Assembly: GCA_964442255.1 (NCBI GenBank)
Contig: CAYTYC010000012.1
Coordinates: 1 to 41,898 of the forward strand
Origin: an uncultured archaeon
Lineage (GTDB): Archaea; Iainarchaeota; Iainarchaeia; Iainarchaeales; 1-14-0-10-31-34
Direction: 5' to 3'
Length of the DNA stretch: 41,898 bases
Shown: positions 2,490-41,071 of the stretch, piece after piece
Layout of the letters: each line of letters starts with the position of its first letter
How positions within the stretch are numbered: the first letter of the stretch is position 1
Notes under the pieces: model-generated
The model's database searches: none
Seen by the model: the letters and a program-made list of their open reading frames with translations, nothing else
Told to the model about the DNA's origin: nothing
Program-made: the position numbers and the translations under genes

Positions 2490-2745
2490 CCAGCCTCGCA
2501 TCCGCTTCCTGGCTAACGTACTTCATTTCTTCCGCCAGTTCCTTGTCCAACTTTGCCATTTTCTTATACCCTTCAATCATAAGCCTTTCCTTTTCCTTTT
2601 TGCTCATGGTTTTTTCTACAACAATTCTGCCGTTCTCTATTTTAACAATCACTTTATCCTTGCTTTTTAGCTTCTCCTTCTCTCTGATTGTTTTTGGCAG
2701 AGTAATCTGCCCCCTTTCTCCAACAGTTGTTATACTTTCATACAT
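2479..2745 (-). CDS. mazE: AbrB/MazE/SpoVT-family antitoxin
   Basis: TTVGERGQITLPKTIREK swapped-hairpin motif, acidic C-terminus, directly upstream of the toxin. Confidence 0.88.
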   Translation of the reverse strand: MYESITTVGERGQITLPKTIREKEKLKSKDKVIVKIENGRIVVEKTMSKKEKERLMIEGYKKMAKLDKELAEEMKYVSQEADARLDDY

Positions 2746-3047
2746 ACAATCACCAACATAACTTTTACATATTAATTCATGCTCAAAACATATTTAAACA
2801 TGCGCTTACAATTTCTTCTTTATAAATAGCCAAACCCATCTGTAAATAATCACGGGAAAAGCTTTTCCGTCTTTAGTCGTCTCCGGTTTTGGTCTTGAGC
2901 GATTGACAATGGTTAAAAAACGAACTATTTATTGTCTCTTTACAAAAAACGGGCAAAAGAATTTTGAAAATTGGTGCTAACACCTACGTTTTTTGGAACA
3001 ATTACCCCATCATCGCCTAACACATCGGGCAATAACTGGTTAAAAGT

Positions 3048-3974
3048 TTATGGTTTTTGCTTGTTTCTGGTCTCTTCTGCCAATTCGTTCAATTCTCTCA
3101 GGGTTTTGCTGGCAAATTTTTCAAACCCTTTGCCTGGCTCTTCTATCATCAGGCGTTCTTCTTCGCCAAGCCTGAATTTTTCTTCAAATTTCTTGTTTTT
3201 CAGGTTTTCCCCGTATTTGAGGTATTTTAGCATGAACCCGGTTTTTTCTATTGCCATTTTCTTTGCTTTTTGTATTGTAATCCCTTTTTTGGCCAGATAG
3301 TGCAGGTCGATGATGTCTCTTGCCTTGAATCCTCTTCTTGTAAGCAGGGCTCTTATTTTTTCTGCCGCAATTTCCCTGAGATCGTAACAGTGGAATGTTG
3401 AAGCACTGGTGGCCATTGCAGCATATGTTGGGTAAAGGTAGTTGAAGTCTTCAGCATGTTTTTCAGCTATTGCTTTTAGTTTGTGCCTTTCTGGCTCGTG
3501 GAATATTTTGTCAACAAAATTCAGTTGTATTTTTATGAATGTTTTTCTTTCCTCAGTGGTTGGCAAGTACCATAGTTTGAATGTTGCAAACCTGTTGCTT
3601 CCGCCTAACTGAATGTAGTGCCTGTCTGACTTGACTGGCTTGAATTCCAGAGCCAGTTCTTTTGCTGTTTTTTCAATTATTTCCATTATTTCGCTGATTT
3701 CTTTTGAGAGCATTTTCCTTATCTGTTTCTCTGACTTGCCTTCGAACGCTTTCTGTTTTATCCATGTAAAGTCAAGGTCTTCCGAGAAACGATAGTACCC
3801 AAAGTATGCTTTGGTCAGGCAGGTTCCGCCTTTGAATACAAATTTTTCTGAAAAATAGTCTGATTTTGAAAGCCGCAACAGCAGGCCCTGCAGCAAAAGG
3901 TCTTTTTCAATTAACCGGGTGCTTTTTATTTGGAGTTTTTCTGCCAGCCAGTTTAATGTTTCCTCTTTAATCAT
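3048..3974 (-). CDS. abiEii: AbiEii/AbiGii-family nucleotidyltransferase toxin (type IV TA)
   Basis: IEKDLL, FVFKGGTCL, YYRFSEDLDF, AEKIRAL..R...RDIIDL motifs. Confidence 0.9.
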   Translation of the reverse strand: MIKEETLNWLAEKLQIKSTRLIEKDLLLQGLLLRLSKSDYFSEKFVFKGGTCLTKAYFGYYRFSEDLDFTWIKQKAFEGKSEKQIRKMLSKEISEIMEIIEKTAKELALEFKPVKSDRHYIQLGGSNRFATFKLWYLPTTEERKTFIKIQLNFVDKIFHEPERHKLKAIAEKHAEDFNYLYPTYAAMATSASTFHCYDLREIAAEKIRALLTRRGFKARDIIDLHYLAKKGITIQKAKKMAIEKTGFMLKYLKYGENLKNKKFEEKFRLGEEERLMIEEPGKGFEKFASKTLRELNELAEETRNKQKP

Positions 3975-4023
3975 TCAAAATTCCTCCAGAATTTTGAATA
4001 TTTCAAAAAACAGTTTTTTGAAA
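3974..4023. promoter_or_regulatory. Two back-to-back perfect inverted repeats filling the abiEi-abiEii spacer
   Basis: TTCAAAATTC-5nt-GAATTTTGAA (3974-3998) and TTTCAAAAAAC-1nt-GTTTTTTGAAA (4001-4023). Confidence 0.7.
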
Positions 4024-4656
4024 TCATTTCAATTCCTCTAAAACGCTTCTTACTGATTTGCCATAATGCCTTGAGTATTTTTTCATTTTGTTTTTGTCTG
4101 TTTCATCTGCCCATTCGATTACATAATCCCTTATCGTCTTATTGCTTTCTCCGGCATATTTTCGTATGTGGATTATGTCAAGGATTGTTTTTTCCAGGTC
4201 TGAATAAGGTGTGTTTTTGGTTTTCTTTATTCCGAATCCAAATAGTTTCTTGTTTAATTTCACAAACTTGACTTTTCTCTCCAGAATCTTTATTGGCTTT
4301 GCTCGGAATATTTTGTCCGAAACAATGTAATCAATTGTAAAAAACTCATGGGTAATGTTGTTCAGTTTTATTGCGCTCTCCAGCCCAAAATACCAGTTTT
4401 TTACTTTTTTGTATTCCATTGCTTTGGAGATTGCTTCGTAAAAGTTTGGGCCGCCTGTTTTGTATTTCCTTTCCTCCACAGTCGGGATGTAGAAGAAACC
4501 CCTCACAATTCGCTTTAGGTAGTTGTAGAGATACAGGTATTTGATTGCCTTTTTGTATGGCATGCCAATCTTGGCACACTCCTCTTTTATCCCCTCGCCT
4601 GAAATATACCTGTTTTTTCTCAGCAAGAGTTTCCTTACGAAAAGCCCATATTTCAT
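4024..4656 (-). CDS. abiEi: AbiEi-like antitoxin / transcriptional regulator
   Basis: N-terminal wHTH-like (YLKRIVRGFFY), WYFGLESA...N, YSDLEKTILD; upstream of abiEii. Confidence 0.8.
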   Translation of the reverse strand: MKYGLFVRKLLLRKNRYISGEGIKEECAKIGMPYKKAIKYLYLYNYLKRIVRGFFYIPTVEERKYKTGGPNFYEAISKAMEYKKVKNWYFGLESAIKLNNITHEFFTIDYIVSDKIFRAKPIKILERKVKFVKLNKKLFGFGIKKTKNTPYSDLEKTILDIIHIRKYAGESNKTIRDYVIEWADETDKNKMKKYSRHYGKSVRSVLEELK

Positions 4657-9913: not shown

Positions 9914-10522
9914 TTACTGGATTATCCCGTATTCTGCTACATTAACATATTGCGTGTCACCTTTTCTTCCAAGGTCGGCTGACCAGGCCGTAAATCTTAT
10001 TTTGTCTCCTTTTTTTACCCCGGGAAAGACTTTTTCTGTTTTTCCATTTGTTGGGCAATCGTGGTAAATGATGTATCCGTCCTTCATTTCGTTTGGAACT
10101 TCCTGGCAACTTGCGACAGCCACAGCGCACTCTGGGCCTTCACAGTTTTCATTAACACAGCTTCCCCCCCTGAAAACTGTTCCTTGAGGGCAGTGTGCTT
10201 GAAGGCCATACTTTATTTTGGCTGGCCTTGCGCTAAAGATAAAGCGAATCTCCATTTCGTCACCCACTTGTTTGACCATTGGGTTTTCTGATATTGGGTC
10301 AATGCTGTCAATTCTTACTTTTGCCTTGTCTTGAGGGCAGATTTCACAGCCCGCTTCTCCCAGTTCGCTTAATTCAACTGAAAGAATTGTCGCCGTGACC
10401 TCTAATTTGGATGCTTCCATGATATCCATTGTTTCACCGGGTAAGCCTCCGCCGATGCATCCGCCAGCCAAAACAATTCCAAAAAATGCAATTATTCCAA
10501 AAACTGTGAAAAGCTTTTTCAT
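9914..10522 (-). CDS. Hypothetical lipoprotein with Cys-rich insert
   Basis: MKK + hydrophobic + AGGC; multiple Cys. Confidence 0.6.
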   Translation of the reverse strand: MKKLFTVFGIIAFFGIVLAGGCIGGGLPGETMDIMEASKLEVTATILSVELSELGEAGCEICPQDKAKVRIDSIDPISENPMVKQVGDEMEIRFIFSARPAKIKYGLQAHCPQGTVFRGGSCVNENCEGPECAVAVASCQEVPNEMKDGYIIYHDCPTNGKTEKVFPGVKKGDKIRFTAWSADLGRKGDTQYVNVAEYGIIQ

Positions 10523-29457: not shown

Positions 29458-29951
29458 ACAAGCCTTATTCTGGTTTCAGTTTGCAGGAGTTCCTGCAATG
29501 CTTTTTCCAGCTCTTCCTGGCCGCAGATGAGCTTTTCAGTGTCTGCCCTTGAAATTAGCACTTCTGTCAGCTCTTTTTCTTCGCCGAACAGCTGGTTTAC
29601 GCCTAAAACGCGCACATCCCCAACCAAATCCTGCACCATTTTCTTGTGGTCCTTTGTGTGCTCCACAACCCTAACCTTTTTTTCCATGAGCCTGCTTAAC
29701 TCCCTTACAATCCTTCCCTTTTTGCCTATCAGGGCGCCGATTCTGCCTTTTCCAACCAAAACGAGTAAATCGCATAAATCAAGGGTTTTCACGTACTCAA
29801 TCTCCAAAGGGGAAAAATTTTTTTCCACTTTTTCCAGCGCCCTTAAAGCCCTTAAATCCAGTTTTTTTAATCCAAGTGAATCCGCCTTTTCACTGCATTT
29901 TTCACAGAATTCCCCTGTTTTAATGTCCTTGTCGCACACAGGCACCTTCAT
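29454..29951 (-). CDS. nusA: Archaeal NusA-like KH-domain protein with N-terminal Cys motif
   Basis: PVC...K.G.FC.KC, GALIGKKGRIVRELS KH motif; GGTG SD before ATG 29951. Confidence 0.75.
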   Translation of the reverse strand: MKVPVCDKDIKTGEFCEKCSEKADSLGLKKLDLRALRALEKVEKNFSPLEIEYVKTLDLCDLLVLVGKGRIGALIGKKGRIVRELSRLMEKKVRVVEHTKDHKKMVQDLVGDVRVLGVNQLFGEEKELTEVLISRADTEKLICGQEELEKALQELLQTETRIRLV

Positions 29952-30040
29952 TTTAAACACCCAATAAGGTAGGGCAAAAGGGGTTAAAAGAATAGCCCGC
30001 AGGCTAAGCCAGAAATAAAAAAAAAGAATCAGAGAAAAAT

Positions 30041-30313
30041 TCATTTCTTCATTGAAATTTCGATTGCCGAAACCTTCAAGGGATTTCCTTCCTCTGAGCT
30101 TATTTCTTCTGTCGCAATATCGATTTTGTCGATCTTTAATTCCGTAATAAACTTGTTTTTCACTATTTCCGCTACATCCACTGCCCTTGAAATGGCTTTC
30201 CCTCTGGCTTTTATTACAACGTCACTTGCTCCGTTGTTGACCTGGGTTACGACAGCCAAAACATAGGCCATTGTGCCTTTTTTTCCGATGAAAACCGTAT
30301 TCTCTTCTGCCAT
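30041..30313 (-). CDS. albA: DNA/RNA-binding protein Alba
   Basis: [35 protein letters not shown]. Confidence 0.97.
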
Positions 30314-30424
30314 TGTTACACCTCCGTTCCAATGATTAAGTTCCTTGAATTGCTAGAATCAATGGCTAAAATATACTCCACTGGGTTGTTTTTTTAAAAC
30401 TAACTAATAAGCAGAGAAAAACAG

Positions 30425-31270
30425 TTATTTAAGGTATAACAGGGTTTTTCTCCAGATTGTGGGGGTAATGGCGGGGTCGTAGTTGAAGTAAATGCTTTTT
30501 CCCACAATAAGGTTTTTTTCCACTATTCCCGGGTAAATGTCCAGCCCGTTCACGTTTTCTATTTGGGCGATTTCGTTTCCAACAGGGGTTACAGGGAATG
30601 TTTCAAGGTAATAGGGCGCAATTCCTTCAGCGGGCGCAATGTCAATGCCCTCCATTATCTGGTGCTTATAATCAACCCTCACAATCCTTCCTGCCACGGC
30701 TCTCCTATCGGTGCAGCCGTCCATTAACGGGTTATCCGTGTTATCGCACCTCACTGGCACAACGTCCCCAAAGGTTGCCTGCCAGCCCAGCACATCCGAT
30801 GCCCCGGGAACCCTTATCCCGGAATCCATTACCACGATTAGCTTGCCCCCGAACTGAACTTTTTTCTTTATTGCTTCAGCCACTTTTGCGGGAATTTCCT
30901 TGCTTCCCTCAAGGTGCTGGTCAAGTATGATTATCGGAAACTGCGCGAGCTGTTCTTCAGGCGAAACCTTTAACTGGTTGATGCTCCTGTAATGCACCCT
31001 CACTATGTCTTTGTTGTCGCTGAATGATTTTTCCATTGCAGGCGAAGCCGAGCCCACAAACAGCACGTTAGTCGGCTCCCCTCCGCCCAAACCAGGGATT
31101 TCCCAGAAGCCGAACCTGTGGCCAAGGAAAGCCACAATAATCAGGATTAAAATCAAGGGAATTAATCCTTCAAGGTTTCTTGACATTTTTCCCCTGAACC
31201 CGCCACCGGCAGGGGGGCTGTAATCAGCCGGAGAACCTCCTCCGCCTCCACCGTCGTCTTCCGGGTACAC
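30425..31270 (-). CDS. Membrane-anchored class I GATase-fold protein
   Basis: Gly/Pro-rich N-terminus, TM, QLAQFPIIIL...KKVQFGGKLIV. Confidence 0.7.
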   Translation of the reverse strand: MYPEDDGGGGGGSPADYSPPAGGGFRGKMSRNLEGLIPLILILIIVAFLGHRFGFWEIPGLGGGEPTNVLFVGSASPAMEKSFSDNKDIVRVHYRSINQLKVSPEEQLAQFPIIILDQHLEGSKEIPAKVAEAIKKKVQFGGKLIVVMDSGIRVPGASDVLGWQATFGDVVPVRCDNTDNPLMDGCTDRRAVAGRIVRVDYKHQIMEGIDIAPAEGIAPYYLETFPVTPVGNEIAQIENVNGLDIYPGIVEKNLIVGKSIYFNYDPAITPTIWRKTLLYLK

Positions 31271-31534
31271 TCTTTTTCACCTGATTCAATTAATCTGTTA
31301 ATACTAATACTATTTTACTGCTGAATTAATTTAAAAGCTTTTGTCCTTTAAAAGCTTTTCTCTTCCGCCGGGCTTGTAGATAAACTATTGGATTTTGGCT
31401 TTTGCAGATAAATTAAGTTCCCGTTTTTGAGCTTTTTAGCTTGTTTTTCCAAAGAAGGGAGCACAATACACGCTGGCTCACTATTTGTCAAAATGGCATA
31501 CAAAAAGGCAACCTTTTTATGCTTGTTGTAGGCT

Positions 31535-32266
31535 ATGGCTGGCATGGAAAAAGTCGAAAAATTTGATGTGAAACTGCCGAGCGATGCTACTAAGGTTACT
31601 GTCAGTAATCTGTGGTCATATTGCTTGGCTATAGCCAGAACAGGCAAAACCTTTGAGGCAAAAGATTTGCTGAAAGCTAACCCTCCACATACCTCAGAAG
31701 ACCCTATGCGAAGGAATTTAGCTTACCTGAAGTATTTGGGGTTTTTGGATGAAAAAAGGGAAAAGTTGGTAAAAGATGGGAAAAAAGTCAATATTCAACG
31801 GTTTAACCAGCGTGTGAAGGATGCCTTGGTTAAGGACTTCTTTTATTTGCTTGCATCAGGAAGGAAAGACGAAGCCAGAACCCACTGGAGACGCCTGATT
31901 GAGAAACACGCTATTTTCAAACTGGTTAAAAGCAAACTTTTCAAGGAAACAGATTTGGCTACCCTTAATGACTTGGAGGACCTGTTAAGGATTCAAGATA
32001 ACAGTAAAAGCAATCCGCAGTTTTACAAAAGTGGGGCATTATTTGTTGCGAGCCTGTTGGAAGAGGCTGGCCTCATAAAGTATAATTCAGTTGAAGGTAA
32101 GCTAAGGCCCCTGTCCCCCGAAGAAAGAACTGAAGGAGAAGAAGCTGCGCCTGGTTTTGCAAATGAACCACTTGGGATAAAAGAGAACTTGGAAAAAGGA
32201 GAAGAGTACCTTGTTTCGATACGTGGTGCAGATCTAAATCTTGATTTTAAGGTTAGAACCACGTAG
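31535..32266 (+). CDS. Hypothetical tandem winged-helix protein (DUF5343-like, tentative)
   Basis: RRNLAYLKYLGFLD and VASLLEEAGLIKY recognition-helix/wing-like motifs; ends at a TAG in frame with the next ORF. Confidence 0.6.
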   Translation: MAGMEKVEKFDVKLPSDATKVTVSNLWSYCLAIARTGKTFEAKDLLKANPPHTSEDPMRRNLAYLKYLGFLDEKREKLVKDGKKVNIQRFNQRVKDALVKDFFYLLASGRKDEARTHWRRLIEKHAIFKLVKSKLFKETDLATLNDLEDLLRIQDNSKSNPQFYKSGALFVASLLEEAGLIKYNSVEGKLRPLSPEERTEGEEAAPGFANEPLGIKENLEKGEEYLVSIRGADLNLDFKVRTT

Positions 32267-32269
32267 GAT

Positions 32270-32971
32270 TTGGACGATGTTAGAATGGTGCTAAAAGTAA
32301 TCGAAAGAAAGATTGCACAGAAAACAGCTGTGCCTTCTGTGGAAGACCCAAATGAGGAGTTAACATCCTGGCAGGTTGGTTCTATGGACGCAACAATAGT
32401 ATTCTTGGATGGGAAATATCTTCAGTTGATTGGCGATTATTTTAGTGACGAAGACGACAAATTAAGATACGACTTGAATCAATTGGCAATAACGCTTTCA
32501 AAGCAACAGGGGCTATGGTGCAAAAAAGCATTCTATTATACTGCACCACCATTTCAATCGGATGTACCAACAGCAGATGAGACCAAACGGAGGTCAAACT
32601 ATGACCGATTTAAGAACAAGTTGGATAAAATCCCCAACTTTGTTGTTAGGGAAGGTCGCTGCCAAAAAGTCGATGGAGAATGCCATCAAAAAGGAGTGGA
32701 TACGCTGGTAACGATGGACCTGCTTTCGGAAGCAGCCGCAAACAGGGGCTTAACCTTTGTTCTGGTAGCTTGCGATACTGATTTCGTGCCAATACTTAAA
32801 GAGATTAACGAAAAGTTTGGGATACGGATAGTCCTTTACTACTTTACTGATAGAGTGAGAGACTCTAAGTTCTCAATGTCCAATCACATTCTAACTGCTT
32901 GTGACGAATGCGTAATGATGACCAAGGACATGTTCCTAAAAAGTCAGTTTCCAAGAAATAGCGGAGAATAA
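32270..32971 (+). CDS. NYN-domain (LabA/DUF88, PIN-like) ribonuclease
   Basis: IVFLDGKY, FYYTAPP, QKGVDTLVTMDL, LVACDTDFVP. Confidence 0.9.
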   Translation: MDDVRMVLKVIERKIAQKTAVPSVEDPNEELTSWQVGSMDATIVFLDGKYLQLIGDYFSDEDDKLRYDLNQLAITLSKQQGLWCKKAFYYTAPPFQSDVPTADETKRRSNYDRFKNKLDKIPNFVVREGRCQKVDGECHQKGVDTLVTMDLLSEAAANRGLTFVLVACDTDFVPILKEINEKFGIRIVLYYFTDRVRDSKFSMSNHILTACDECVMMTKDMFLKSQFPRNSGE

Positions 32972-32980
32972 GAGTAACGT

Positions 32981-33004
32981 CTGGCATCCCCGTAGAAATG
33001 CCAG
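32981..33004 (+). terminator. Hairpin after the NYN gene
   Basis: CTGGCAT-10nt-ATGCCAG, 10 bp after the stop. Confidence 0.35.
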
Positions 33005-33143
33005 GGCTCATGTTATAAATAAAATACTTGAACAGGTATTTAAATCTTACTTTTGGCCTTTTTGCCCAATAAGTACTGTGGTGGCTTTGTGGACATGCCG
33101 CGGTAGGTTTATCTACAAGCCCTCTTCCCCGCCCAGTTCCTGC

Positions 33144-34076
33144 TTATTTCAGCATTCCGTTGTACATGTTCACTAAAATGTAATAGTATTTTTCCTCCAA
33201 ATCGGGGTGCGCAAACATTTCCGGGGGAAGCGCATAATAAGCCACTTTCCCGCCCCTTGTGATTATCACGGGAAAAACCCTCCCCAAATCCTCTCCATTG
33301 GAGTCCTTTACCGCTCCCCCGACATCCACGCTTAAAGGCGTTGTGCTGCCTGCTGCCCCTGAAGGCTTTACGACAGCAAAATTGCCCCGCATTAAAAGGT
33401 TTTTCTTCAAGCCCACAATAAACGCGTTGCCTGGCTCAACTCCCACTTCCAGCCTTCCAGCCAAAACACCCGTATGGCAGTTTTCGTCAAAGGAAGACAT
33501 TCCACAGTAATTGCCCTTATAGTTTGCGCCAATGAAGTCATCGAATGCAACAATTTTTTCTCCCTCTTTTCTCGCCCACGGCCCAATGATTTCGTGGTCG
33601 TTTTTTCCTTCCGGCCTTTCATCAAAGTACAGGAAATTGTCGTCCCTTCCAAGGACTGTCCCGGCATCACCTGTCCAGACAACCCTTCCGCCCTGGTTCA
33701 CGTAATTCATGAAATACTTTAACTGCCTGGTTTCCATTTCCCTTGCACGGGTTACAATCACAAGATGATAATCCTTCAAATTCCCTTCATTCAATAAATC
33801 CGTGTGAAGCCGGTAAGGGTAAACCCCGATATAGTCCCTGTCCCTTAAAATGTCCGCCAATAAATCCGGGTCACCCAAGCCCGAGTCACCGTAAACTATG
33901 AGCACTTTTGGCTGCCCCAAGACAGTGTAATAAACTTCGCACCACCCCGGAATTGTGCTGCACTTCATTATTCCGCTCCAAGTCAAAATAAACAGCACAA
34001 TTGCAACCAAAACCAGGAGCACAACCACGTGCATGGCGGTTTTCAGGGGAGACTGGGGCTGTCCGGGGTACTTCAT
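33144..34076 (-). CDS. Membrane-anchored class I GATase-fold protein, probable paralog of 30425-31270
   Basis: TM, PKVLIVYGD, LKDYHLVIVT...YVNQGGRVVW. Confidence 0.7.
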   Translation of the reverse strand: MKYPGQPQSPLKTAMHVVVLLVLVAIVLFILTWSGIMKCSTIPGWCEVYYTVLGQPKVLIVYGDSGLGDPDLLADILRDRDYIGVYPYRLHTDLLNEGNLKDYHLVIVTRAREMETRQLKYFMNYVNQGGRVVWTGDAGTVLGRDDNFLYFDERPEGKNDHEIIGPWARKEGEKIVAFDDFIGANYKGNYCGMSSFDENCHTGVLAGRLEVGVEPGNAFIVGLKKNLLMRGNFAVVKPSGAAGSTTPLSVDVGGAVKDSNGEDLGRVFPVIITRGGKVAYYALPPEMFAHPDLEEKYYYILVNMYNGMLK

Positions 34077-34127
34077 TTTCACCACAAAGCAAACGCTTTT
34101 ATTCCTTAAGGATTAAGTAGTTTTTAA

Positions 34128-34745
34128 CTATAATAATGTTTTGTTTGAGGTTTTTTGGATGGTTAAACTTTCCCGCGGCCCGGGGGTAAGCGGTCCAAGC
34201 AGTTCCCTTGGAATAATGCGTTTCTTTGACGTGGACACCGGCGGACCAAAAATGTCGCCGGAATTCATTGTCGCATTAAGCGTTGTATTCATAATAATTG
34301 TTGTGATAGTTAAAAGCCTGCTGCCGTCCTGATTATTTGGGCCTTCTTTGCCCCGTCCTTTTCGTGGGCTTTCCCTTAACCCCGGCTTTTCCTTGGTTTC
34401 AGCCTTTTTTCCTTTCAGGATTGAGTCGGCTTCCTTTATTGTGGAGTAAGGGTCAAGCCGCCCTACTGTTGCCCTTAATCCTGCAAGCGCAAGGGTTCTC
34501 TCCCTGAAGCCGTACTTGGTTTTTTCCAGCATCGCCTTTGTGAATAGGTCAATGTACTCCTGGAATTTTCCGGCTTCAATAAGCTCTTTTGCGGTCGGCA
34601 TTCCAAGCCGCCGCATCCCGGGGTCAAAAACCCTCAGCTTTCCCCAAAGTTGTGCGTTCACCAATTCCCTTTCACGTATTTCTTCATCAGGGGTTTCAAC
34701 AGCGGCCTTCAAGGCAACCTCAATCGGGTCAGCCACTCTATTCAC
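34128..34745 (-). CDS. Hypothetical protein; its C-terminal part overlaps sec61beta antisense
   Basis: GTGA coupling to the ileS stop; about the first 135 aa look protein-like. Confidence 0.55.
   Translation of the reverse strand: MNRVADPIEVALKAAVETPDEEIRERELVNAQLWGKLRVFDPGMRRLGMPTAKELIEAGKFQEYIDLFTKAMLEKTKYGFRERTLALAGLRATVGRLDPYSTIKEADSILKGKKAETKEKPGLRESPRKGRGKEGPNNQDGSRLLTITTIIMNTTLNATMNSGDIFGPPVSTSKKRIIPRELLGPLTPGPRESLTIQKTSNKTLL
34159..34332 (+). CDS. secG: Preprotein translocase subunit Sec61beta (archaeal SecG)
   Basis: GPSSSLGIMRFFD...GPKMSPEFIV + TM. Confidence 0.9.
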   Translation: MVKLSRGPGVSGPSSSLGIMRFFDVDTGGPKMSPEFIVALSVVFIIIVVIVKSLLPS

Positions 34746-37594
34746 TTCCCCAAGCCAATAAAAAATTCCCTGAATAAGTTTTTTTCCATTTTTCCTTTTC
34801 CTTCCCTTAATTTTGTGTTGGTCTGCTTTTCAATTTCTTTCCCAAATTTTTTCACAAACCCTTTGTCAGAGGAACCGAGCCTCAACTCAACAGTATCATT
34901 CGGGTTAAATTTGAGTTCTTTTCTCTTGGATTGAATTTTCCTGACCAATTCCGCAAGCTCCCATTTTTCCTTTAACTCTTCACTTTCCTCTACATTCAAA
35001 TGCAGTCTGATTTTTTCCCCGAAGTCCTCCGAAAAGAATTTTCCCTTCGGCTTTCCCCTGGAAAAAGAAATTTTTTCCACGTTAACCATCTGCGCAAGAA
35101 TTCCCGTTGTTTCCTTCAACGGCTTTCCCTTTGCTTCAATAACCAGTTCCTTCAAAACCCACCGCAAGCGCTTTTTCTGTTTTTCCCTCATTGACAAAAC
35201 AGCCTGCGCAATCTCCTTCACCAGCCGGAATTCTTTCTCCAGCCTTTTGTCAATCAATTTTTTGTCAGCTTTCGGGAGCGAATAAAAGTGGATTGATTCC
35301 TTCATTCCCTTTTGCTTCATGTCCCGGTAAAAGTATTCCGTTAAATGCGGGACAACCGGCGCAAGCAGTTTCATCAAACCAAAGGTCACGTAGTTTGCGG
35401 TTTTGCTTACCGGCTTTTCTTTCACCCTGTTCCTGATGAGCTTAATGTAAGTCCTGCTGAAATCCTCCAACAAAAAATCATGCACCAATTGTGTTGCCTT
35501 AGAGTAGGCATAGGAATTGTATGCATCCAAAACCTCTTTGCTTAAGGAATTAAACCTTGAAACAATCCACTTGTCTTCAGGCTTCAGCCCTGAGGCCGAG
35601 ATTTTTTTTTCGGGTTCCATTTCCAGATACAGGTGAATGAAGTTAAACGAATTCCAAAGGACATTAAAGAAGCGGTTGATTTCCCTGAATGCGTCCCAGG
35701 AAAAGGCAATATCCTCTCCCCGGGAAACGGAGGCAAAATAGTATCGCAAATAATCCCGGTTGTGCTTTGCGATTACATCCTTGGGCTGCACAATATTCCC
35801 CTTGCTTTTCGACATCTTTGTTTTCTCGACATCCAAAACCATTCCATGAACCGCAATCGCCTTGAAAGGCGCCTTGTTGAAGGAAATCGTTGAGGTAATC
35901 AACTGCGAATTCCACCATCCCCTAAACTGGTCGCTTCCCTCCAAGTTAAAGTCCGCTGGCCAAAACTTTTCAAACAACTTTTTATCCAAAGGATAACCCA
36001 ATGCCCCCCAGCTGCTGACACCCGAATCAAACCAGACATCCATTACCTCGGGAACCCTTTTCATTTCGCCTTTGCATTTCTTGCACGGAAACTTAACTTC
36101 ATCAATGTGCGGCTTATGCAAATCCAGTTCCTTGGGAAGCTTTGCGTGTTTCCCTAATTCTTTCAATGAGCCAATCACAACCTTTTCTTTGCATTCCCCG
36201 CAAACCCAAATCGGAAGGGGCGTGCCCCAGTACCTTGCCCTTGAAATCGGCCAGTCCCCTATTCCATGAATCCAGTTTTTCATTCTTTCCTTCATCCACC
36301 CCGGAACCCACTCAACTTTTTCATTCAATTCAAGCATTTTTTTCTGGATTCCTGACACGCGGAAAAACCATTGCGGGACGGCAATCATCAAAAGCGGAGT
36401 CTTGCATCTCCAGCACAAAGGATAATCATGCGTGAAAGGATGCCCGTACACCAGCAAACCTTTTCCCTTCAAGTCCTGCACAATCTCTTCATCCACTTCC
36501 CTTGCCCTTTTTCCCGCGTACTTTCCCGCCTCTTTTGTTAATTCCCCGTTCAATTGCACCGGGCTGATTGCAGGCAAACCCGCCTCTTTTCCCGCTTCAT
36601 AGTCCTCGCGCCCATGCCCCGGCGCCGTATGCACTAACCCTGTGCCTTCCTCCAAATTCACGTACCTGCTGTGCAAAATCACGCGGTAAGCGTTTTTCAG
36701 TTCAGGCAAATCCAAAAAACCTTCCAACGGGGCCTCATACTCCCAGCCATCCATTTCTTTTCCCCTGAATTCCTTTTTGGCTGTGTAGCCCGCTTCAACC
36801 GCATCCATTAAACCCTGCACCAAATCCTTTGCGATAACCCATTTTTCCCCGTTGCTTAACTCAATTTCACTGTACAAAAACTTCGGGTGAACCATTACCC
36901 CTGTGTTGCCGGGCAAAGTCCAGGGGGTGGTGGTCCAGACAATAAGGAAAGTGTTTTCCTTTCCCTTTACCTTGAATTTGACGTAAACTGCCCTGTCCGT
37001 TTGTTTGGCGTACTCTATTTCATTGTAGCTCACAGAGGTTGCGCACCTTGGGCAGACATGCACTGAATACTTGTCCAAATAAAGAAGCCCCTTTTCCTCC
37101 GCCTTCTTGAACGCAAACCAAATCGCTTCAATGTACTCGTTCCGTAAGGTAATGTACGGATTTTCCCAGTCCATCCACACCCCCAAATCATTGAATTCTT
37201 CGTTCATTTCGTCAATGTACCGGGTTGCGTAAGACCTGCATTTTTCAATGAACTTCCCGACACCGTAATCTTCAATGTCTTTTTTCCTTTTCACTCCAAT
37301 CTCTTTTTCTATCTGCACTTCAATTGGAGTTCCGTGCGTGTCATAACCCGGGCGGTCAAAAACGTGAAGGCTTTGCATCCTCTTTGAGCGCAAGGCAATG
37401 TCCTTCAAAATCTTGTTCAAGCCCGTGCCCATGTGAATGTGGCCTGTCGCGTAAGGCGGGCCGTCCATAAAATAAAAGCCTTTCCTGTTTTTTGCGCTCT
37501 TTGCCCTAACCTTTTCCGGAATCTTGTTTTTTTCCCAGAATTTTTTGATTTCCTCTTCCTTCTGCAGGGAATACTGTTCAAGGAGTTTTTTCAT
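34742..37594 (-). CDS. ileS: Isoleucine--tRNA ligase
   Basis: DGPPYATGHIHMG, WTTTPWTLPGN, GTGLVHTAPGHG, DW.ISR.RYWGTP, KMSKS. Confidence 0.97.
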   Translation of the reverse strand: MKKLLEQYSLQKEEEIKKFWEKNKIPEKVRAKSAKNRKGFYFMDGPPYATGHIHMGTGLNKILKDIALRSKRMQSLHVFDRPGYDTHGTPIEVQIEKEIGVKRKKDIEDYGVGKFIEKCRSYATRYIDEMNEEFNDLGVWMDWENPYITLRNEYIEAIWFAFKKAEEKGLLYLDKYSVHVCPRCATSVSYNEIEYAKQTDRAVYVKFKVKGKENTFLIVWTTTPWTLPGNTGVMVHPKFLYSEIELSNGEKWVIAKDLVQGLMDAVEAGYTAKKEFRGKEMDGWEYEAPLEGFLDLPELKNAYRVILHSRYVNLEEGTGLVHTAPGHGREDYEAGKEAGLPAISPVQLNGELTKEAGKYAGKRAREVDEEIVQDLKGKGLLVYGHPFTHDYPLCWRCKTPLLMIAVPQWFFRVSGIQKKMLELNEKVEWVPGWMKERMKNWIHGIGDWPISRARYWGTPLPIWVCGECKEKVVIGSLKELGKHAKLPKELDLHKPHIDEVKFPCKKCKGEMKRVPEVMDVWFDSGVSSWGALGYPLDKKLFEKFWPADFNLEGSDQFRGWWNSQLITSTISFNKAPFKAIAVHGMVLDVEKTKMSKSKGNIVQPKDVIAKHNRDYLRYYFASVSRGEDIAFSWDAFREINRFFNVLWNSFNFIHLYLEMEPEKKISASGLKPEDKWIVSRFNSLSKEVLDAYNSYAYSKATQLVHDFLLEDFSRTYIKLIRNRVKEKPVSKTANYVTFGLMKLLAPVVPHLTEYFYRDMKQKGMKESIHFYSLPKADKKLIDKRLEKEFRLVKEIAQAVLSMREKQKKRLRWVLKELVIEAKGKPLKETTGILAQMVNVEKISFSRGKPKGKFFSEDFGEKIRLHLNVEESEELKEKWELAELVRKIQSKRKELKFNPNDTVELRLGSSDKGFVKKFGKEIEKQTNTKLREGKGKMEKNLFREFFIGLGK

Positions 37595-38241
37595 TTTTTC
37601 ACCAGTTCTTCAATTTTTTCCACGGAAACCTCTTTTAAGCTTTTTACAGCCAAATCCGCGCGAGAAAAATCGTGCTTGGAGGTGAACTCCGTTACAAGCC
37701 CAATGCACTTCATTCCCGCATTCTTTGCCGAATCAATTCCCGGGGAAGAATCTTCCACGGCAACCGCATTCCGGGCTTCAACCCCTAAAGCCTTTAAGCT
37801 CTTCAGATAAATTTCCGGGTTCGGTTTGATCTCTGCAACGTCGTCCCCGGAAAAAACCGAATCAAAAATTCCCTGAAATTTTCCGTGCTCCAAAACAGCG
37901 TCAACATTTTTTTTGTGCGAGTTTGTCGCCAGCCCAAGTTTCCAGCCCTTTTCCTTCGCTTCCTTTAACAGCTCCCTTGCGCCTTCGCTTACTTCCACTT
38001 CCTTCAAGTATTCGTAATGCAGTTCCCGCTTTTTTTTGCTTAACTCAACCACGTCCCCCTCAATTTTAAAGTCAGCCAAAGTTTTCTGGATTGCCTTAAA
38101 GGTTTTGCTTCCAACCAAATTCTGGTAATAATCCTGTGTAATCTCCGCCCCAAGCGGGGAAAACAATTCCTTCCATTCCCTGAACCCAAGCGCCTCTGTG
38201 TTAATCAGCACCCCGTCCATGTCAAAAACCAATGCATTCAA
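37591..38241 (-). CDS. HAD-superfamily phosphatase (beta-PGM-like)
   Basis: FDMDGVL, LATNS, KPNPEIY, VEDS..GI. Confidence 0.92.
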   Translation of the reverse strand: MNALVFDMDGVLINTEALGFREWKELFSPLGAEITQDYYQNLVGSKTFKAIQKTLADFKIEGDVVELSKKKRELHYEYLKEVEVSEGARELLKEAKEKGWKLGLATNSHKKNVDAVLEHGKFQGIFDSVFSGDDVAEIKPNPEIYLKSLKALGVEARNAVAVEDSSPGIDSAKNAGMKCIGLVTEFTSKHDFSRADLAVKSLKEVSVEKIEELVKK

Positions 38242-38260
38242 TTAATTCACGCTCCAAAAA

Positions 38261-38335
38261 TGGGGCCAGGAGGATTTGAACCCCCGACACATGGCGTATA
38301 AGACCATTGCTCTAACCAGGCTGAGCTATAGCCCC
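38261..38335 (-). tRNA. trnI: tRNA-Ile(UAU)
   Basis: GGGGCTA/TGGCCCC acceptor, ATGGT-CTTATAC-GCCAT anticodon arm, GGGGG-TTCAAAT-CCTCC, A73. Confidence 0.9.
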
Positions 38336-38612
38336 TTGCCGGCTGCTGCCGGCAGTGCAGGGTGCCATCTGCGATGGCACTTGCTCGCCCCAATGGGCTC
38401 GCACTGCCCCTTGCCCATTCCGTAGGGCAGGTCCGGTGTGCCGGCTGTTCCCGGCAGTGGAATCCCGCCTGCTCGCGGGAGCGGAGTGCGCCATGCTTTG
38501 CATGGCAGTTGTTCGGCTTTCGCCTCGCACTTGCCGCCTTCTTGCGGCAGCAGAGATGTCCTGTTTCCTCCGCTTTTGCTCCGGAGGCAGATCTGCTCGC
38601 TTCGCTTGCAGT
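38336..38612. repeat. GC-rich multi-hairpin cassette upstream of tRNA-Ile
   Basis: About nine hairpins; the 27-mer shared with the tRNA-Val cassette; 10-bp direct repeat GCCCCTTGCC at 38331 and 38406. Confidence 0.8.
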
Positions 38613-38772
38613 TGCCCTGCAGTTAAACAGTGTATATTTACCTTTATATAATTCACTTAAAAGAGAATCAGAAAATCCTTTGTGGGCGTATTTGTCGATC
38701 CCTTCTCATGTTTAACACTCCAAGAAATGGGGTTAAAAGGGTTTTTAAAGGATAAGGGGAAGCTGAATTAAT

Positions 38773-39285
38773 ATGGCCAAAAAAAGGAATCCAAAACCGC
38801 TTTTATTCTCCGGCTCCAGAGCCAGTGAAAGGATGCAGCAGGTCAGAGACACCGCCAACGCCGCAAAAAAAGCCATTAAGGAATTGGATCCGAATGTTGA
38901 AGCGCCAATATTTGCTGCTTTGAATTTAAGGGCGGAGAAAGTGAAAAGCGTTGACCCAAAACACAGGAATCAAAGAAAAGTTTTGGCTGACATTCTTCAC
39001 GACGTATATAACCAGCATTCTTATCTTTATTCCAGGAAACCAGAAGGATTTGGCGCCCTGATGGATTTGTATGGAAAAGATTTTCGCGAGGTAGCCCCCA
39101 ATGTTTCAAGTGCGCTTTTAAAGCACTGGGCGCGCGTTTTAACAGACATAAAAATGAGAAAATTGGGGAGGGAAAAAGATTTAACTGGCCGGCATGGAGG
39201 AGAATGGATTTACACCTGGAACAACATCAACTCCGAATTGGGAGCCCTCCTTGATGAAGCCTTGTCGCACCTTAAAGGGAATTAA
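38773..39285 (+). CDS. Hypothetical protein
   Basis: 170 aa, TTTTAAA box about 25 bp upstream of ATG. Confidence 0.6.
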   Translation: MAKKRNPKPLLFSGSRASERMQQVRDTANAAKKAIKELDPNVEAPIFAALNLRAEKVKSVDPKHRNQRKVLADILHDVYNQHSYLYSRKPEGFGALMDLYGKDFREVAPNVSSALLKHWARVLTDIKMRKLGREKDLTGRHGGEWIYTWNNINSELGALLDEALSHLKGN

Positions 39286-39651
39286 TTATTCCCTTTTCCC
39301 TGATTCAAACTCTTTTTCGCTGATGTTGTTGTCTGTTTTCACGTCGCTTACCTCTTCCCCGGCTTCCTCCATTTGGCCGTATCTGCCCACATTCAGCCTC
39401 AGGGAGTTCTTGAACAAGGAAGTGTAGCCGTTTGTCACCTTGTAGCTTTTGCCGTCCTCAATTTTGTCTATGAGCTCATCCCATAAAGTCAGCAAAACTG
39501 TTCCCGTATCATCCCCGAAAACCGCTTCAGTCACCTTGTGGCTGGAGTTATCCAGTTTGCTTGAAACTTCCCGGACCTCGTTTTTTTCAAGAACTTTTCC
39601 GACCGCGTCAACTTTTTTCATGAAAGGCCTTAATTCAGCTATTTTTGCCAT
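39286..39651 (-). CDS. ssb: Single OB-fold ssDNA-binding protein (SSB/RPA)
   Basis: KIAELRP, V.EAVFGDDTG.V.LTLWD, NGYTSLFK..LRLNVGRYG; GAGGTG SD. Confidence 0.92.
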   Translation of the reverse strand: MAKIAELRPFMKKVDAVGKVLEKNEVREVSSKLDNSSHKVTEAVFGDDTGTVLLTLWDELIDKIEDGKSYKVTNGYTSLFKNSLRLNVGRYGQMEEAGEEVSDVKTDNNISEKEFESGKRE

Positions 39652-39816
39652 AATTGTTTTCACCTCTTGAATGGTTTTAAATTGATTCAGGCCTTCAAAA
39701 AAAATTCAAGTGAACCCAAACCAATTGACTAAAGATTCAGCGAAAAAAACCCTTTTAAAGGTAATTGCCTAAGGTCTTCAATATCCTTAAATAGTTCTTA
39801 GGATGAATAATTGATT

Positions 39817-40335
39817 ATGGGAAAATTGTACGCCATAATTGCGGTTGCCCTTGCGGTTGTTTTTATCGTTGGCTTTCTTTCTGTTTTCGGGATACAAACA
39901 ATCTCGGCAGACAAGCAGGAATATTCCTCCGGCGAAGAAGTAAAAATCAGGTTTTCCGATTTCAGCCTTCATTGGAGTACATGCGGCGGCAAAAGCATTC
40001 AAATATTCAAGCAGGAAGCAAGCGGGTGGAAAATGATTCAATACCAGTTATTGGGGTATGGGGGCGAGGCTTGTGTTGACGGCGAAACTGCTTTGATGGT
40101 GATGGGTTGCGATTTTGTCTTATTTCCGTTATTTCCAACAATGAATATTGAAAGCAAAGACTTTTCCTGGAATTCAAAAGTTTATGAAAAAGCTGGGGAA
40201 GTTGATTCGTGTTTTAGCCCATTCAGAAATGAAACAGTTAACCGGAAGATGGAAAACTATGAATTAAGAAATGTGCCCCCTGGAAAATACAAATTAAAGT
40301 ATGGAAGCGCGGAAACAATCATTGAAATAAAATAA
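39817..40335 (+). CDS. Hypothetical membrane-anchored exported protein
   Basis: N-terminal TM, Ig-like pattern ending VPPGKYKLKY. Confidence 0.65.
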   Translation: MGKLYAIIAVALAVVFIVGFLSVFGIQTISADKQEYSSGEEVKIRFSDFSLHWSTCGGKSIQIFKQEASGWKMIQYQLLGYGGEACVDGETALMVMGCDFVLFPLFPTMNIESKDFSWNSKVYEKAGEVDSCFSPFRNETVNRKMENYELRNVPPGKYKLKYGSAETIIEIK

Positions 40336-40337
40336 GC

Positions 40338-40874
40338 TCACTTTTTCTTTAGGATTCCTTTCACCAAAGAAACAGCCTTTTCCCTCAAGTCTTCCGGCGA
40401 GCCGTCGTTTTCAATTTTAAAGTCGCTTTCCTCCAAGACCTTTCCAAAGCCTTTTCGTTCAATGTCAATCTCGTCCCTTTGCAAAAAAGCTTTTCTTTCC
40501 TGTGCGTCAGCCTTGCTCCGCCTTTCAAACCTTTTATTGGGGGAAGCGTTAATCCTCACAACCACCACATTTTCACAGTTAGCCTTAATGTAGTCCACTT
40601 CTTCTTTGGAGCGCGGCCCCACCAGAACGAGCTTTTCTTTTCCTTTTGCCTTTTCCCACAAGCGCTTAGCGAAAACGTCCATTCCCTCTTTTTTTCTTAA
40701 CTCGTCCCCGATGTTGCTTAAATTTTCCTTGGTTGCCGGCAGCCCGCGTTTTTTCGCCTCTTCCGCAATGAAGTCGCTGAACACAAATTTCCTGAAGCCG
40801 AATTCTTCGGCAATTATGTCAGCGGCAGTGTCTTTCCCGGAGCGCGCCAAGCCAATCACGATTATTGCGGGCAT
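40338..40874 (-). CDS. P-loop nucleoside monophosphate/dephospho-CoA kinase-like (UPF0200-type)
   Basis: IIVIGLARSGKDT, RFER, DFKIENDGS. Confidence 0.8.
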   Translation of the reverse strand: MPAIIVIGLARSGKDTAADIIAEEFGFRKFVFSDFIAEEAKKRGLPATKENLSNIGDELRKKEGMDVFAKRLWEKAKGKEKLVLVGPRSKEEVDYIKANCENVVVVRINASPNKRFERRSKADAQERKAFLQRDEIDIERKGFGKVLEESDFKIENDGSPEDLREKAVSLVKGILKKK

Positions 40875-41071
40875 TACAGATAGGGTGGACACTTGACTTT
40901 AAAAAACCTTTTTAAGGTTAAAAAAAATTAAAAAGCACTTAAAGTATTTAGGGAAAAATGGTGGGGGAATGTAGTGCCTAACGGGTTGGAAAGCCTTAAA
41001 TAGCTTGAATTCCTTATATTTTTGTGTTATTGGATGGCTGAATCCCCCCCTTCTACATTCACATTCCTTCT

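What the first reader, a model, noticed from the sequence alone, without database searches (positions are those of the whole stretch)
31370..33122. Transposase-less mobile cassette delivering a wHTH + NYN ribonuclease module
Seen: 1753 bp with perfect 16-bp TIRs (GGGCTTGTAGATAAAC) and a decayed 9-bp target duplication. It has an internal hairpin before the first ORF (GCATACAAAAAGG/CCTTTTTATGC), two passenger ORFs whose codon style looks unlike the host genes, and no transposase. Known: mobile insertion cassettes/transporter IS carry passenger genes, and PIN/NYN RNases are toxin and defence effectors. Inference: an undescribed mobile defence or TA unit mobilised in trans.
Basis: partly seen in the sequence, partly recalled or inferred. 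Interest (0 to 1): 0.8.

Follow-up and report, generated by a model that had tools for sequence, protein, structure and literature searches.

The report
Transposase-less IS903-like cassette carrying NYN nuclease
This 1.75-kb stretch in a small (DPANN-type) archaeon is a real transposase-less relative of IS5/IS903-like cargo transposons that carry restriction-modification and NYN-nuclease genes in other archaeal genomes; it is a known kind of mobile element with unstudied cargo.

Summary
Perfect 16-nt inverted repeats sit at 31370-31385 and 33107-33122, the 9-nt flanks match 7/9, and there is no transposase inside or anywhere in the window. The repeat alone is not beyond chance; three related elements in other archaeal contigs make it convincing. 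L008 5581-10312, L001 3822-8124 and L067 2188-9157 have the same kind of ends (GGnCTTGTAG.TAAAY / GGCTTTGT...), each has a perfect 9-bp target duplication, and each has an IS5-family transposase at its right end. Their cargo is a type II R-M system plus an ORF1 homologue, an ATPase plus NYN, and a type III R-M system plus a winged-helix protein plus NYN. The window element is a mosaic without a transposase: its left 50 nt and ORF1 resemble L008, and its NYN unit resembles L001. Two corrections apply. ORF1 (a tandem winged helix from a rare family) and "ORF2" share one reading frame split by a single TAG, which cuts off ORF1's conserved C-terminal tail. NYN really starts at 32384. The ORF1+NYN pair is unique to this window, and NYN also stands alone next to housekeeping genes elsewhere. 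A defence or toxin-antitoxin role is therefore circumstantial. Verdict: a new member of a known kind (mobile insertion cassette / transporter IS), of moderate interest.

The parts
31361..31369 (.). Left copy of the 9-bp target-site duplication (TCTTCCGCC)
   Evidence: It matches the right flank at 7/9 positions. Related elements have perfect 9-bp duplications at the same position.
31370..31385 (+). Left terminal inverted repeat, GGGCTTGTAGATAAAC
   Evidence: It matches 15/16 positions of the left end of the L008 transposon, and the homology begins exactly at this base.
31397..31416 (+). Subterminal second copy of the end motif (GGCTTTTGCAGATAAATTAA), a probable inner transposase-binding site
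   Evidence: It is conserved at the same 18-nt spacing in L008 5608-5627. Analogous second motifs occur in L067 (2215-2231) and L001. The binding function is inferred.
31496..31522 (+). Imperfect hairpin overlapping a TATA-like TTTTTATG; probable promoter region of ORF1
   Evidence: -8.9 kcal/mol, z -1.3, not exceptional. The promoter role is inferred from the spacing to the ATG at 31544.
31535..32266 (+). ORF1: tandem winged-helix protein of 243 aa, ended by a premature TAG (32264-32266) relative to all 39 aligned relatives
32267..32329 (+). In-frame remnant of the conserved ORF1 C-terminal tail (DLDDVRMVLKVIERKIAQK...) after the TAG; the frame then stays open into NYN
   Evidence: (tblastn of the L009 protein runs to 32329).
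32384..32971 (+). NYN (LabA-like, PF01936) nuclease gene of 195 aa, with its acidic residues conserved
   Evidence: Pfam E = 4.9e-8, above the cut-off. There are 559 homologues of 190-200 aa. D9, D106, D112, D131 and D133 are conserved. The AF2 model (pLDDT 89) matches VPA0982 and the MARF1 NYN domain.
32972..33050 (+). Conserved non-coding block downstream of NYN (hairpin CTGGCAT...ATGCCAG, then TATTTAAAT); it travels with the NYN gene
   Evidence: It is nearly invariant in six loci whose NYN proteins are 66-83% identical. There is no Rfam match. Its function is unknown.
33107..33122 (-). Right terminal inverted repeat (reverse complement of the left one, 16/16)
33123..33131 (.). Right copy of the target-site duplication (TCTTCCCCG)

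Best explanation
Window 31370-33122 is a non-autonomous derivative of a family of IS5-family (IS903-like) cargo transposons found in DPANN-type archaeal genomes. In ISfinder terms it is a mobile insertion cassette.

Shown:
- It has the family's terminal inverted repeat at both ends.
- It has the family's second, subterminal copy of the end motif on the left.
- Its 9-bp flanks still match at 7/9 positions.
- It contains no transposase.

Inferred mechanism: a DDE transposase of the L008/L001/L067 type, made from an autonomous copy elsewhere in the cell, binds the two ends. It cuts the cassette out or copies it and inserts it with a 9-bp staggered cut. Here the target was the intergenic DNA about 100 nt upstream of the 281-aa membrane-protein gene.

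The cargo is a mosaic. The left end plus ORF1 resembles the L008 transposon. The NYN gene, with its conserved 3' block, resembles the NYN cargo of L001 and L067.

The cassette is not fresh. Its target duplication has decayed, and ORF1 has a premature TAG that removes its conserved C-terminal helix. NYN has no TATA-like sequence of its own and lies in-frame behind ORF1, so it is probably transcribed from the ORF1 promoter (inferred).

The most likely role of the cargo is a winged-helix regulator or partner plus an NYN RNase effector, of the accessory conflict-system type. This is the weakest step and rests on gene neighbourhoods only.
For: Relatives with perfect target duplications:
- L008 5581-10312: ends GGGCTTGTAGATAAAT and (rc) AGACTTGTAGATAATT; flanks GCATGTAAA on both sides.
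- L001 3822-8124: ends GGACTTGTAGCTAAAT and (rc) GGCTTTGTAGCTAAAT; flanks GTCCAAGCC on both sides.
- L067 2188-9157: ends GGCTTTGTTTAATAA(T/C); flanks CATAAAAAG on both sides.
- Each has a 384-392-aa transposase at its right end (split 293+108 aa in L008). The transposases are 40-47% identical to one another. They match the IS5-family model NF033579; the two L001 transposases scanned score above the cut-off, the split L008 one below it (92.6 bits, cut-off 140), and L067's was not scanned.
- IS903B has the end GGCTTTGTTGAATAAATC and a 9-bp direct repeat (PMC10569121).

Links to the window:
- Homology between the window and L008 outside ORF1 is a 50-nt block that starts exactly at the first base of the repeat.
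- A degenerate pattern for the end motif hits only these element ends, plus one extra site inside a gene in L001, across 168 kb of related loci.
- NYN is cargo in L001 (83% aa identity, 80% nt identity including 100 nt downstream) and in L067 (66%).
- The ORF1 homologue is cargo in L008.

Cargo type:
- The other cargo consists of R-M systems.
- Distant ORF1 relatives sit directly upstream of variable partner genes: HicA in L009, proteins with an Rx5H motif in L056 and L057, and TcmP in L063 and L065.
- NYN gives weak hits to PADLOC HEC-09 and NYN models.
Against: - The inverted repeat alone is within chance for a 42-kb window.
- The target duplication is imperfect.
- No second copy, no cognate transposase and no empty site could be shown for this genome. 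Only this contig and one identical 1.6-kb contig that stops short of the cassette were available.
- The NYN family also occurs without such ends next to housekeeping genes. In two relatives it lies near Alba or IleRS, genes that are also near the cassette here. This could mean NYN is resident in this neighbourhood.
- The ORF1+NYN pairing is seen only here, and ORF1 is truncated.
- PADLOC gives nothing for ORF1.
Confidence: 0.8

Rival explanations
1. It is a full cargo transposon that decayed in place. An autonomous element (left end, ORF1, NYN, transposase, right end) inserted here, and an internal deletion later removed the transposase. The cassette has therefore never moved as a transposase-less unit.
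For: All three relatives carry the transposase at the right end, immediately after cargo that includes NYN in two of them. The element shows other signs of decay: the TAG in ORF1 and the 7/9 duplication.
Against: Nothing of the transposase gene or of the inner right-end motif remains. Only 33 unrelated nt separate the NYN unit from a perfect 16-nt right end. A deletion would have had to stop exactly at the repeat.
Confidence: 0.3
2. It is a chance inverted repeat around a resident gene. NYN is a native gene of this Alba-IleRS neighbourhood, ORF1 arrived separately, and the 16-nt repeat and 7/9 flanks are coincidence.
For: A 16-nt perfect inverted repeat appears in 22% of simulated windows. NYN lies next to Alba in L002 and next to kinase, tRNA-Ile and IleRS in L007, all genes found within 8 kb of the cassette here. 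Stand-alone NYN loci have no such ends.
Against: The left arm is the first 16 nt of a 50-nt block shared with the end of a transposon that has a perfect target duplication. My estimate of the chance that this particular 16-mer has a perfect inverted copy within 6 kb is about 3e-6. The flanks match 7/9 at the length the family predicts. NYN is proven cargo in L001 and L067.
Confidence: 0.04
3. The cargo is not a conflict system. NYN is an ordinary RNA-processing nuclease of these archaea that transposons happen to pick up, and ORF1 is an unrelated, now broken, DNA-binding gene.
For: The NYN family has 559 or more members across Nanoarchaeota, Micrarchaeia, Diapherotrites, Aenigmatarchaeota and Thermoplasmata. 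It stands alone beside CysRS, thermosome, Alba and the RNA polymerase operon. There is no obligatory neighbour, so it is not a classic type II toxin. ORF1 is truncated.
Against: In three of three transposon-borne copies, NYN sits directly behind a protein that contains a winged helix, with gaps of 10, 18 and 118 nt. It travels with R-M systems. It gives weak PADLOC HEC-09 and NYN hits. Its 50-83% identity across phyla fits horizontal spread.
Confidence: 0.35
4. It is an invertible DNA segment flipped by a site-specific recombinase acting on the inverted repeats.
For: The inverted repeats bracket a promoter-bearing segment, and NYN has opposite orientation relative to Alba in L002 and in the window.
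Against: No recombinase is present in the window. The ends are IS903-like and have a target duplication. The relatives carry DDE transposases.
Confidence: 0.02

Closest known systems
Mobile insertion cassettes (MICs), e.g. the IS231-derived MIC231 of the Bacillus cereus group (category as listed in PMC3129680; the example is from my own knowledge)
   Same: It is bounded by the terminal inverted repeats of an IS. It has no transposase and carries passenger genes. It is presumed to be moved by the transposase of a related autonomous IS.
   Different: The ends are IS5-family and IS903-like rather than IS4/IS231. The host is a DPANN-type archaeon. The cargo is a winged-helix protein plus an NYN nuclease. 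Trans-mobilisation is not shown here.
Transporter ISs (tIS): insertion sequences with passenger genes (PMC3129680)
   Same: The relatives L001, L008 and L067 are single units of left end, cargo, transposase and right end, with one target duplication.
   Different: The window element lacks the transposase. The cargo of the relatives is R-M systems, a tRNA-Met gene and NYN modules rather than the resistance or metabolic genes typical of bacterial examples.
IS903 / IS903B (IS5 family)
   Same: The end sequence is similar: IS903B GGCTTTGTTGAATAAATC against GGCTTTGTAGCTAAAT (L001), GGCTTTGTTTAATAAC (L067) and GGGCTTGTAGATAAAC (window). Both make a 9-bp direct repeat (PMC10569121). The transposases match the IS5 model NF033579.
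   Different: The transposases here carry an N-terminal zinc ribbon and are archaeal. Assignment to a subgroup was not tested by phylogeny.
LabA-like NYN nucleases (VPA0982, PDB 2qip; MARF1 NYN domain, PDB 5yaa and 6fdl)
   Same: Same fold, with Foldseek E values from 1e-8 to 1e-5. Pfam PF01936 matches. The acidic residues are conserved.
   Different: Sequence identity is 11-19%. No PDB relative is detectable by sequence. The substrate is unknown. This clade has its own conserved 3' non-coding block.
PADLOC candidate HEC-09 and the PADLOC 'NYN' model
   Same: The NYN domain gives weak profile matches: E = 4e-6 and 1.8e-3 for the window protein, and 1.7e-8 and 1e-5 for the L067 protein.
   Different: Scores are low (16-32 bits). 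The partner genes of those systems are not present, so membership is not established.

Membership tests
Non-autonomous IS5/IS903-like element (mobile insertion cassette) | Terminal inverted repeats of the same type as an autonomous IS or transposon | tested here: met
   The window's two ends match each other 16/16. They match the L008 left end 15/16, the L001 ends 12-14/16 and the L067 ends 10/16. All are bona fide element ends.
Non-autonomous IS5/IS903-like element (mobile insertion cassette) | Target-site duplication of the family's length (9 bp) | tested here: inconclusive
   The window's flanks match 7/9 (p about 1.3e-3 by my calculation), or perfectly if one 2-nt indel is allowed. The three relatives have perfect 9/9 duplications.
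Non-autonomous IS5/IS903-like element (mobile insertion cassette) | No transposase between the ends, but passenger gene(s) present | tested here: met
   ORF listing, Pfam and tblastn with the relatives' transposases find no trace of a transposase. The cargo is ORF1 and NYN.
Non-autonomous IS5/IS903-like element (mobile insertion cassette) | A cognate autonomous copy in the same genome, and/or several copies of the cassette | not testable with these tools
   Only this 41.9-kb contig was available, and it has no transposase. The scans of the genome and metagenome collections were used on other patterns.
Non-autonomous IS5/IS903-like element (mobile insertion cassette) | Evidence of movement (an empty site or an insertion polymorphism) | tested here: inconclusive
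   The only other contig of this organism that I found (L066) ends 175 nt before the left end.
NYN / LabA-like nuclease (PF01936) | Profile match above the curated threshold, the fold, and the conserved acidic residues | tested here: met
   Pfam gives 34 bits against a cut-off of 24.2. Foldseek finds 2qip and the MARF1 NYN domain. D9, D106, D112, D131 and D133 are conserved.
NYN / LabA-like nuclease (PF01936) | Ribonuclease activity | not testable with these tools
   This needs an enzyme assay.
Type II toxin-antitoxin pair (ORF1 antitoxin + NYN toxin) | The two genes are conserved as an adjacent pair across relatives | tested here: not met
   ORF1's close homologues have no NYN. NYN stands alone in L002, L006, L007 and L068. 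Only analogous pairs, not homologous ones, occur in L001 and L067.
Known anti-phage defence system (PADLOC-DB 2.0) | Significant match of all components to one system's models | tested here: not met
   ORF1 has no hit. NYN has only weak hits to HEC-09 and NYN models.
Winged-helix DNA-binding protein (ORF1) | Winged-helix fold | tested here: met
   The AF2 model (pLDDT 78; above 85 over residues 10-190) shows two helix-turn-helix units with beta wings. Foldseek hits are all winged-helix proteins but weak, with E of 0.04 or more. There is no Pfam, NCBIfam or PDB sequence match.

The most novel reading that the evidence does not exclude
The rare ORF1 family is a modular partner for interchangeable RNase effectors. 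It comprises tandem winged-helix proteins of about 260 aa, represented by 56 clusters among 1.84 billion. The partner would act as sensor, regulator or antitoxin. The effectors would include NYN here, HicA in L009, and proteins with an Rx5H HEPN-like motif in L056 and L057. Such two-gene modules, together with R-M systems, would be spread among DPANN archaea by IS903-like cargo transposons and their transposase-less derivatives. The invariant 75-nt block behind NYN would be an RNA component of the module.
Probability: 0.2. Interest if true: 0.65.

Novelty: new member of a known kind. Interest (0 to 1): 0.5.

Why it matters
DPANN archaea have tiny genomes and are mostly uncultured, and little is known about how they exchange accessory genes. 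This locus and its three relatives show one concrete vehicle: IS5/IS903-like transposons with precise ends and 9-bp duplications. These transposons carry whole restriction-modification systems, a tRNA gene and NYN-nuclease modules, and they leave transposase-less cassettes behind. That gives a searchable end-sequence signature for finding mobile cargo in these genomes. It also flags two unstudied cargo families, the ORF1 tandem winged-helix proteins and a DPANN NYN clade with a conserved 3' element. The element type itself is textbook, so the value lies in annotation and in pointing to candidates, not in a new principle.

Tried and rejected
- The 16-nt end sequence gave 43 single hits in viral contigs, all consistent with chance. 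The one apparent inverted pair (L035) lies inside a 1326-aa ORF.
- The two-motif left-end pattern found only the L008 contig in genome contigs and nothing in viral contigs.
- An NYN protein search and the NYN 3'-block pattern found nothing in viral contigs.
- Rfam found nothing credible in 31200-33300.
- A profile search with the 40-sequence ORF1 alignment in the word-indexed protein database returned only 6 proteins. The same alignment was too diverse for the search for related loci; a 10-sequence version gave 9 mostly short loci.
- I tested whether the flanking 281-aa and 313-aa genes are tandem paralogues that could explain the flank similarity. They are at best very distant (E = 0.16).
- I rejected TAG reassignment, because TAG ends four other genes in the window.
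- I examined an internal end-like motif at L008 9157. It lies inside the transposase ORF, where it encodes the zinc-ribbon residues CWSCS, so it is not a separate IS end.
- I tested the antisense small ORF across the NYN 3' block. Its length varies from 23 to 55 aa, so coding is not supported.
- I tested whether L067 p242 is homologous to ORF1. hhalign gives 14% probability and only the C-terminal domain looks alike, so this is left open.
Full report
**What is in the sequence.**

The window is a whole 41.9-kb contig of a DPANN-type archaeon. It carries Alba, IleRS, tRNA-Ile and tRNA-Val, and the homologues of its NYN gene come from Nanoarchaeota, Micrarchaeia, Diapherotrites and similar groups.

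At 31370-31385 lies GGGCTTGTAGATAAAC, and at 33107-33122 lies its perfect reverse complement. The 9-nt flanks are TCTTCCGCC and TCTTCCCCG, a 7/9 match. The segment sits in intergenic DNA between two minus-strand genes for membrane-anchored proteins of 281 and 313 aa. These two are not close paralogues. No transposase or integrase is encoded in the segment or anywhere in the window.

**Is the repeat more than chance?**

Taken alone, it is not. It is the longest perfect inverted repeat with arms under 6 kb apart in the window. However, 22% of 300 Markov-simulated windows contain one at least as long. The hairpin before ORF1 is also ordinary (z -1.3). GC3 of the two genes (0.42-0.43) is low but within the range of other window genes. 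The case for a real element comes from other genomes.

**The related elements.**

The NYN protein has hundreds of relatives, whereas ORF1 has only two close ones. I fetched their contigs.

- **L008 (an NCBI archaeal MAG).** The only non-coding similarity to the window is a 50-nt block at L008 5581-5630, which begins exactly at the first base of the window's left repeat. It reads GGGCTTGTAGATAAAT, and 18 nt further comes a second copy of the motif, as in the window. The matching right end, AATTATCTACAAGTCT, lies at 10297-10312. Both ends are flanked by the same 9 bases, GCATGTAAA. Between the ends lie:
  - Vsr;
  - a type II restriction enzyme and a C5 methylase;
  - the ORF1 homologue;
  - a tRNA-Met gene;
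  - a small ribbon-helix-helix-like ORF;
  - an IS5-family transposase split into 293 and 108 aa.
- **L001.** The ends GGACTTGTAGCTAAAT (3822) and, reverse-complemented, GGCTTTGTAGCTAAAT (8124) are flanked by GTCCAAGCC on both sides. The cargo is:
  - a Vut_1 transporter;
  - a 421-aa NACHT/Orc-like ATPase with a C-terminal winged helix;
  - the NYN gene (83% aa identity to the window's);
  - a MazE-like ORF;
  - a 384-aa transposase.
- **L067.** The ends GGCTTTGTTTAATAA(T/C) at 2188 and 9157 are flanked by CATAAAAAG on both sides. The cargo is:
  - a type III R-M system;
  - a 242-aa protein;
  - NYN (66% identity);
  - a 392-aa transposase.

The transposases of the three elements, and that of a neighbouring IS in L001, are 40-47% identical to each other. 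They match the IS5-family model NF033579; both L001 transposases score above its cut-off, the split L008 copy scores below it, and the L067 copy was not scanned. The ends resemble IS903B (GGCTTTGTTGAATAAATC), which also makes a 9-bp repeat (PMC10569121).

Three independent perfect 9-bp duplications leave no doubt that these are transposons. They are single units with cargo between the left end and the transposase, which the ISfinder curators call transporter ISs (PMC3129680).

**What the window element is.**

It has the family's ends, the left subterminal motif and a decayed duplication of the right length, but no transposase. That makes it a mobile insertion cassette in the ISfinder sense.

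It is a mosaic. Its left 50 nt and ORF1 (55% aa identity) resemble L008. Positions 32369-33073, which hold NYN plus about 100 nt downstream, are 79-80% identical in DNA to the NYN units of L001 and L002. Only about 40 nt join the ORF1-derived and NYN-derived parts. Only 33 unrelated nt separate the NYN unit from the right end.

Whether the cassette arrived without a transposase or lost it in place cannot be decided from one contig. I favour the first, because nothing at all of the transposase or of the inner right-end motif remains.

**Corrections to the gene picture.**

- ORF1 and the listed second ORF share one reading frame, interrupted by a single TAG at 32264-32266.
- The ~20 codons after the TAG (DLDDVRMVLKVIERKIAQK) align with the C-terminal helix present in all 39 aligned ORF1 relatives. 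ORF1 is therefore truncated here. The TAG aligns with Glu or Ser in the two close homologues, so a single G-to-T change from GAG is one possible origin.
- TAG is an ordinary stop in four other window genes, so reassignment is unlikely.
- NYN proper begins at ATG 32384. Its own upstream promoter region, visible in relatives, has been replaced by ORF1 sequence. It is therefore probably co-transcribed with ORF1 (inference).

**The cargo proteins.**

*ORF1.* The model is confident over residues 10-190 and shows two winged-helix units. PDB matches are only weak and are all winged-helix proteins. No Pfam, NCBIfam, PHROG, PADLOC or PDB sequence match exists. An exhaustive HMMER search finds only 56 representative clusters among 1.84 billion.

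In more distant members, the gene is followed immediately by a variable partner:

- ~310-aa proteins that share an N-terminal domain and carry an Rx5H motif in L056 and L057;
- a different C-terminus in L062;
- TcmP next to a radical SAM enzyme in L063 and L065;
- HicA in L009.

*NYN.* It passes the Pfam threshold and keeps its acidic residues. Its model matches VPA0982 and the MARF1 NYN domain.

**Function: what can and cannot be said.**

For a conflict-system role:

- NYN is cargo in three elements, each time directly behind a protein that contains a winged helix.
- It travels together with R-M systems.
- It gives weak PADLOC HEC-09 and NYN hits.

Against:

- The same NYN clade stands alone beside Alba (L002), CysRS (L006), thermosome, kinase, tRNA-Ile and IleRS (L007), and the RNA polymerase operon (L068), with no element ends nearby.
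- The ORF1-NYN pairing is unique to this window.
- ORF1 is broken.

NYN therefore fails the test for a classic type II toxin-antitoxin pair. I rate a winged-helix partner plus RNase effector of an accessory or defence kind at about 0.4, and a housekeeping RNase picked up by transposons at about 0.35.

One puzzle remains. In L002 and L007, NYN lies near genes that also neighbour the cassette here. This hints either at an old residence of NYN in this region or at local hopping.

**Verdict.**

The claims of an undescribed kind and of a defence or toxin-antitoxin unit are not established. This is a new archaeal member of a known class of IS derivatives, with unstudied cargo.

Noticed in passing
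window 32972-33050 (also L001 6595-6680, L002 2618-2700, L006, L007, L067): A ~75-nt non-coding block directly after the NYN stop codon is nearly invariant across six loci whose NYN proteins are only 66-83% identical, so it is better conserved than the gene. It holds a hairpin (CTGGCAT / loop CCCCGTAGGA / ATGCCAG) and a consensus archaeal TATA-like TTTAAATA on the minus strand about 30 nt from a conserved ATG. It is absent in the 56%-identical L068. There is no Rfam match. An antisense ORF starts MSPGI(P/S)TGMPDV but varies from 23 to 55 aa.
   Followed up: partly
L008 8795-8870: A tRNA-Met (CAT) gene lies inside the 4.7-kb transposon, between the ORF1 homologue and the transposase, so a tRNA gene appears to be transposon cargo.
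   Followed up: no
window 33399-33414 (minus strand): A 14/16 near-copy of the terminal repeat (GGGCTTGAAGAAAAAC) lies 277 nt outside the right end, in the same orientation, inside the coding region of the 313-aa gene. About 0.02 such matches are expected by chance in the window (my calculation), so it could be coincidence or an old end.
   Followed up: no
window 2145-4656: The far end of the contig carries other toxin-antitoxin-type genes: a MazF/PemK-like toxin (2145-2501) and an AbiEii nucleotidyltransferase toxin (3048-3974) with an adjacent 210-aa gene.
   Followed up: no
L002 1637-2617; L007 4440-7375; window 30041-40892: In relatives, NYN lies next to Alba (L002) or next to the kinase, tRNA-Ile and IleRS (L007), genes that are all within 8 kb of the cassette here. 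This is unexpected if NYN were delivered from elsewhere, and it suggests an old local residence or short-range hopping.
   Followed up: partly
L066 (Logan SRR7048218 contig), equal to window 29581-31195: An independent assembly of the same organism is 100% identical over 1615 nt and breaks 175 nt before the left end of the cassette. A contig break near a repeat could hint at multiple copies or polymorphism, but it falls in a low-complexity GGGGGG-coding stretch.
   Followed up: partly
L056 6383-7324, L057 2789-3724, L054, L062 590-1606: The partner genes downstream of distant ORF1 relatives share a ~150-aa N-terminal domain but have different C-terminal domains. Two of them carry an Rx5H (HEPN-like) motif, IRSMGDAHG. 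None matches Pfam, NCBIfam or PADLOC.
   Followed up: partly
L009 1369-2630: The ORF1 homologue overlaps the start of a HicA toxin gene by 4 nt, while HicB lies convergently on the other strand. This is an unusual arrangement for hicAB.
   Followed up: no
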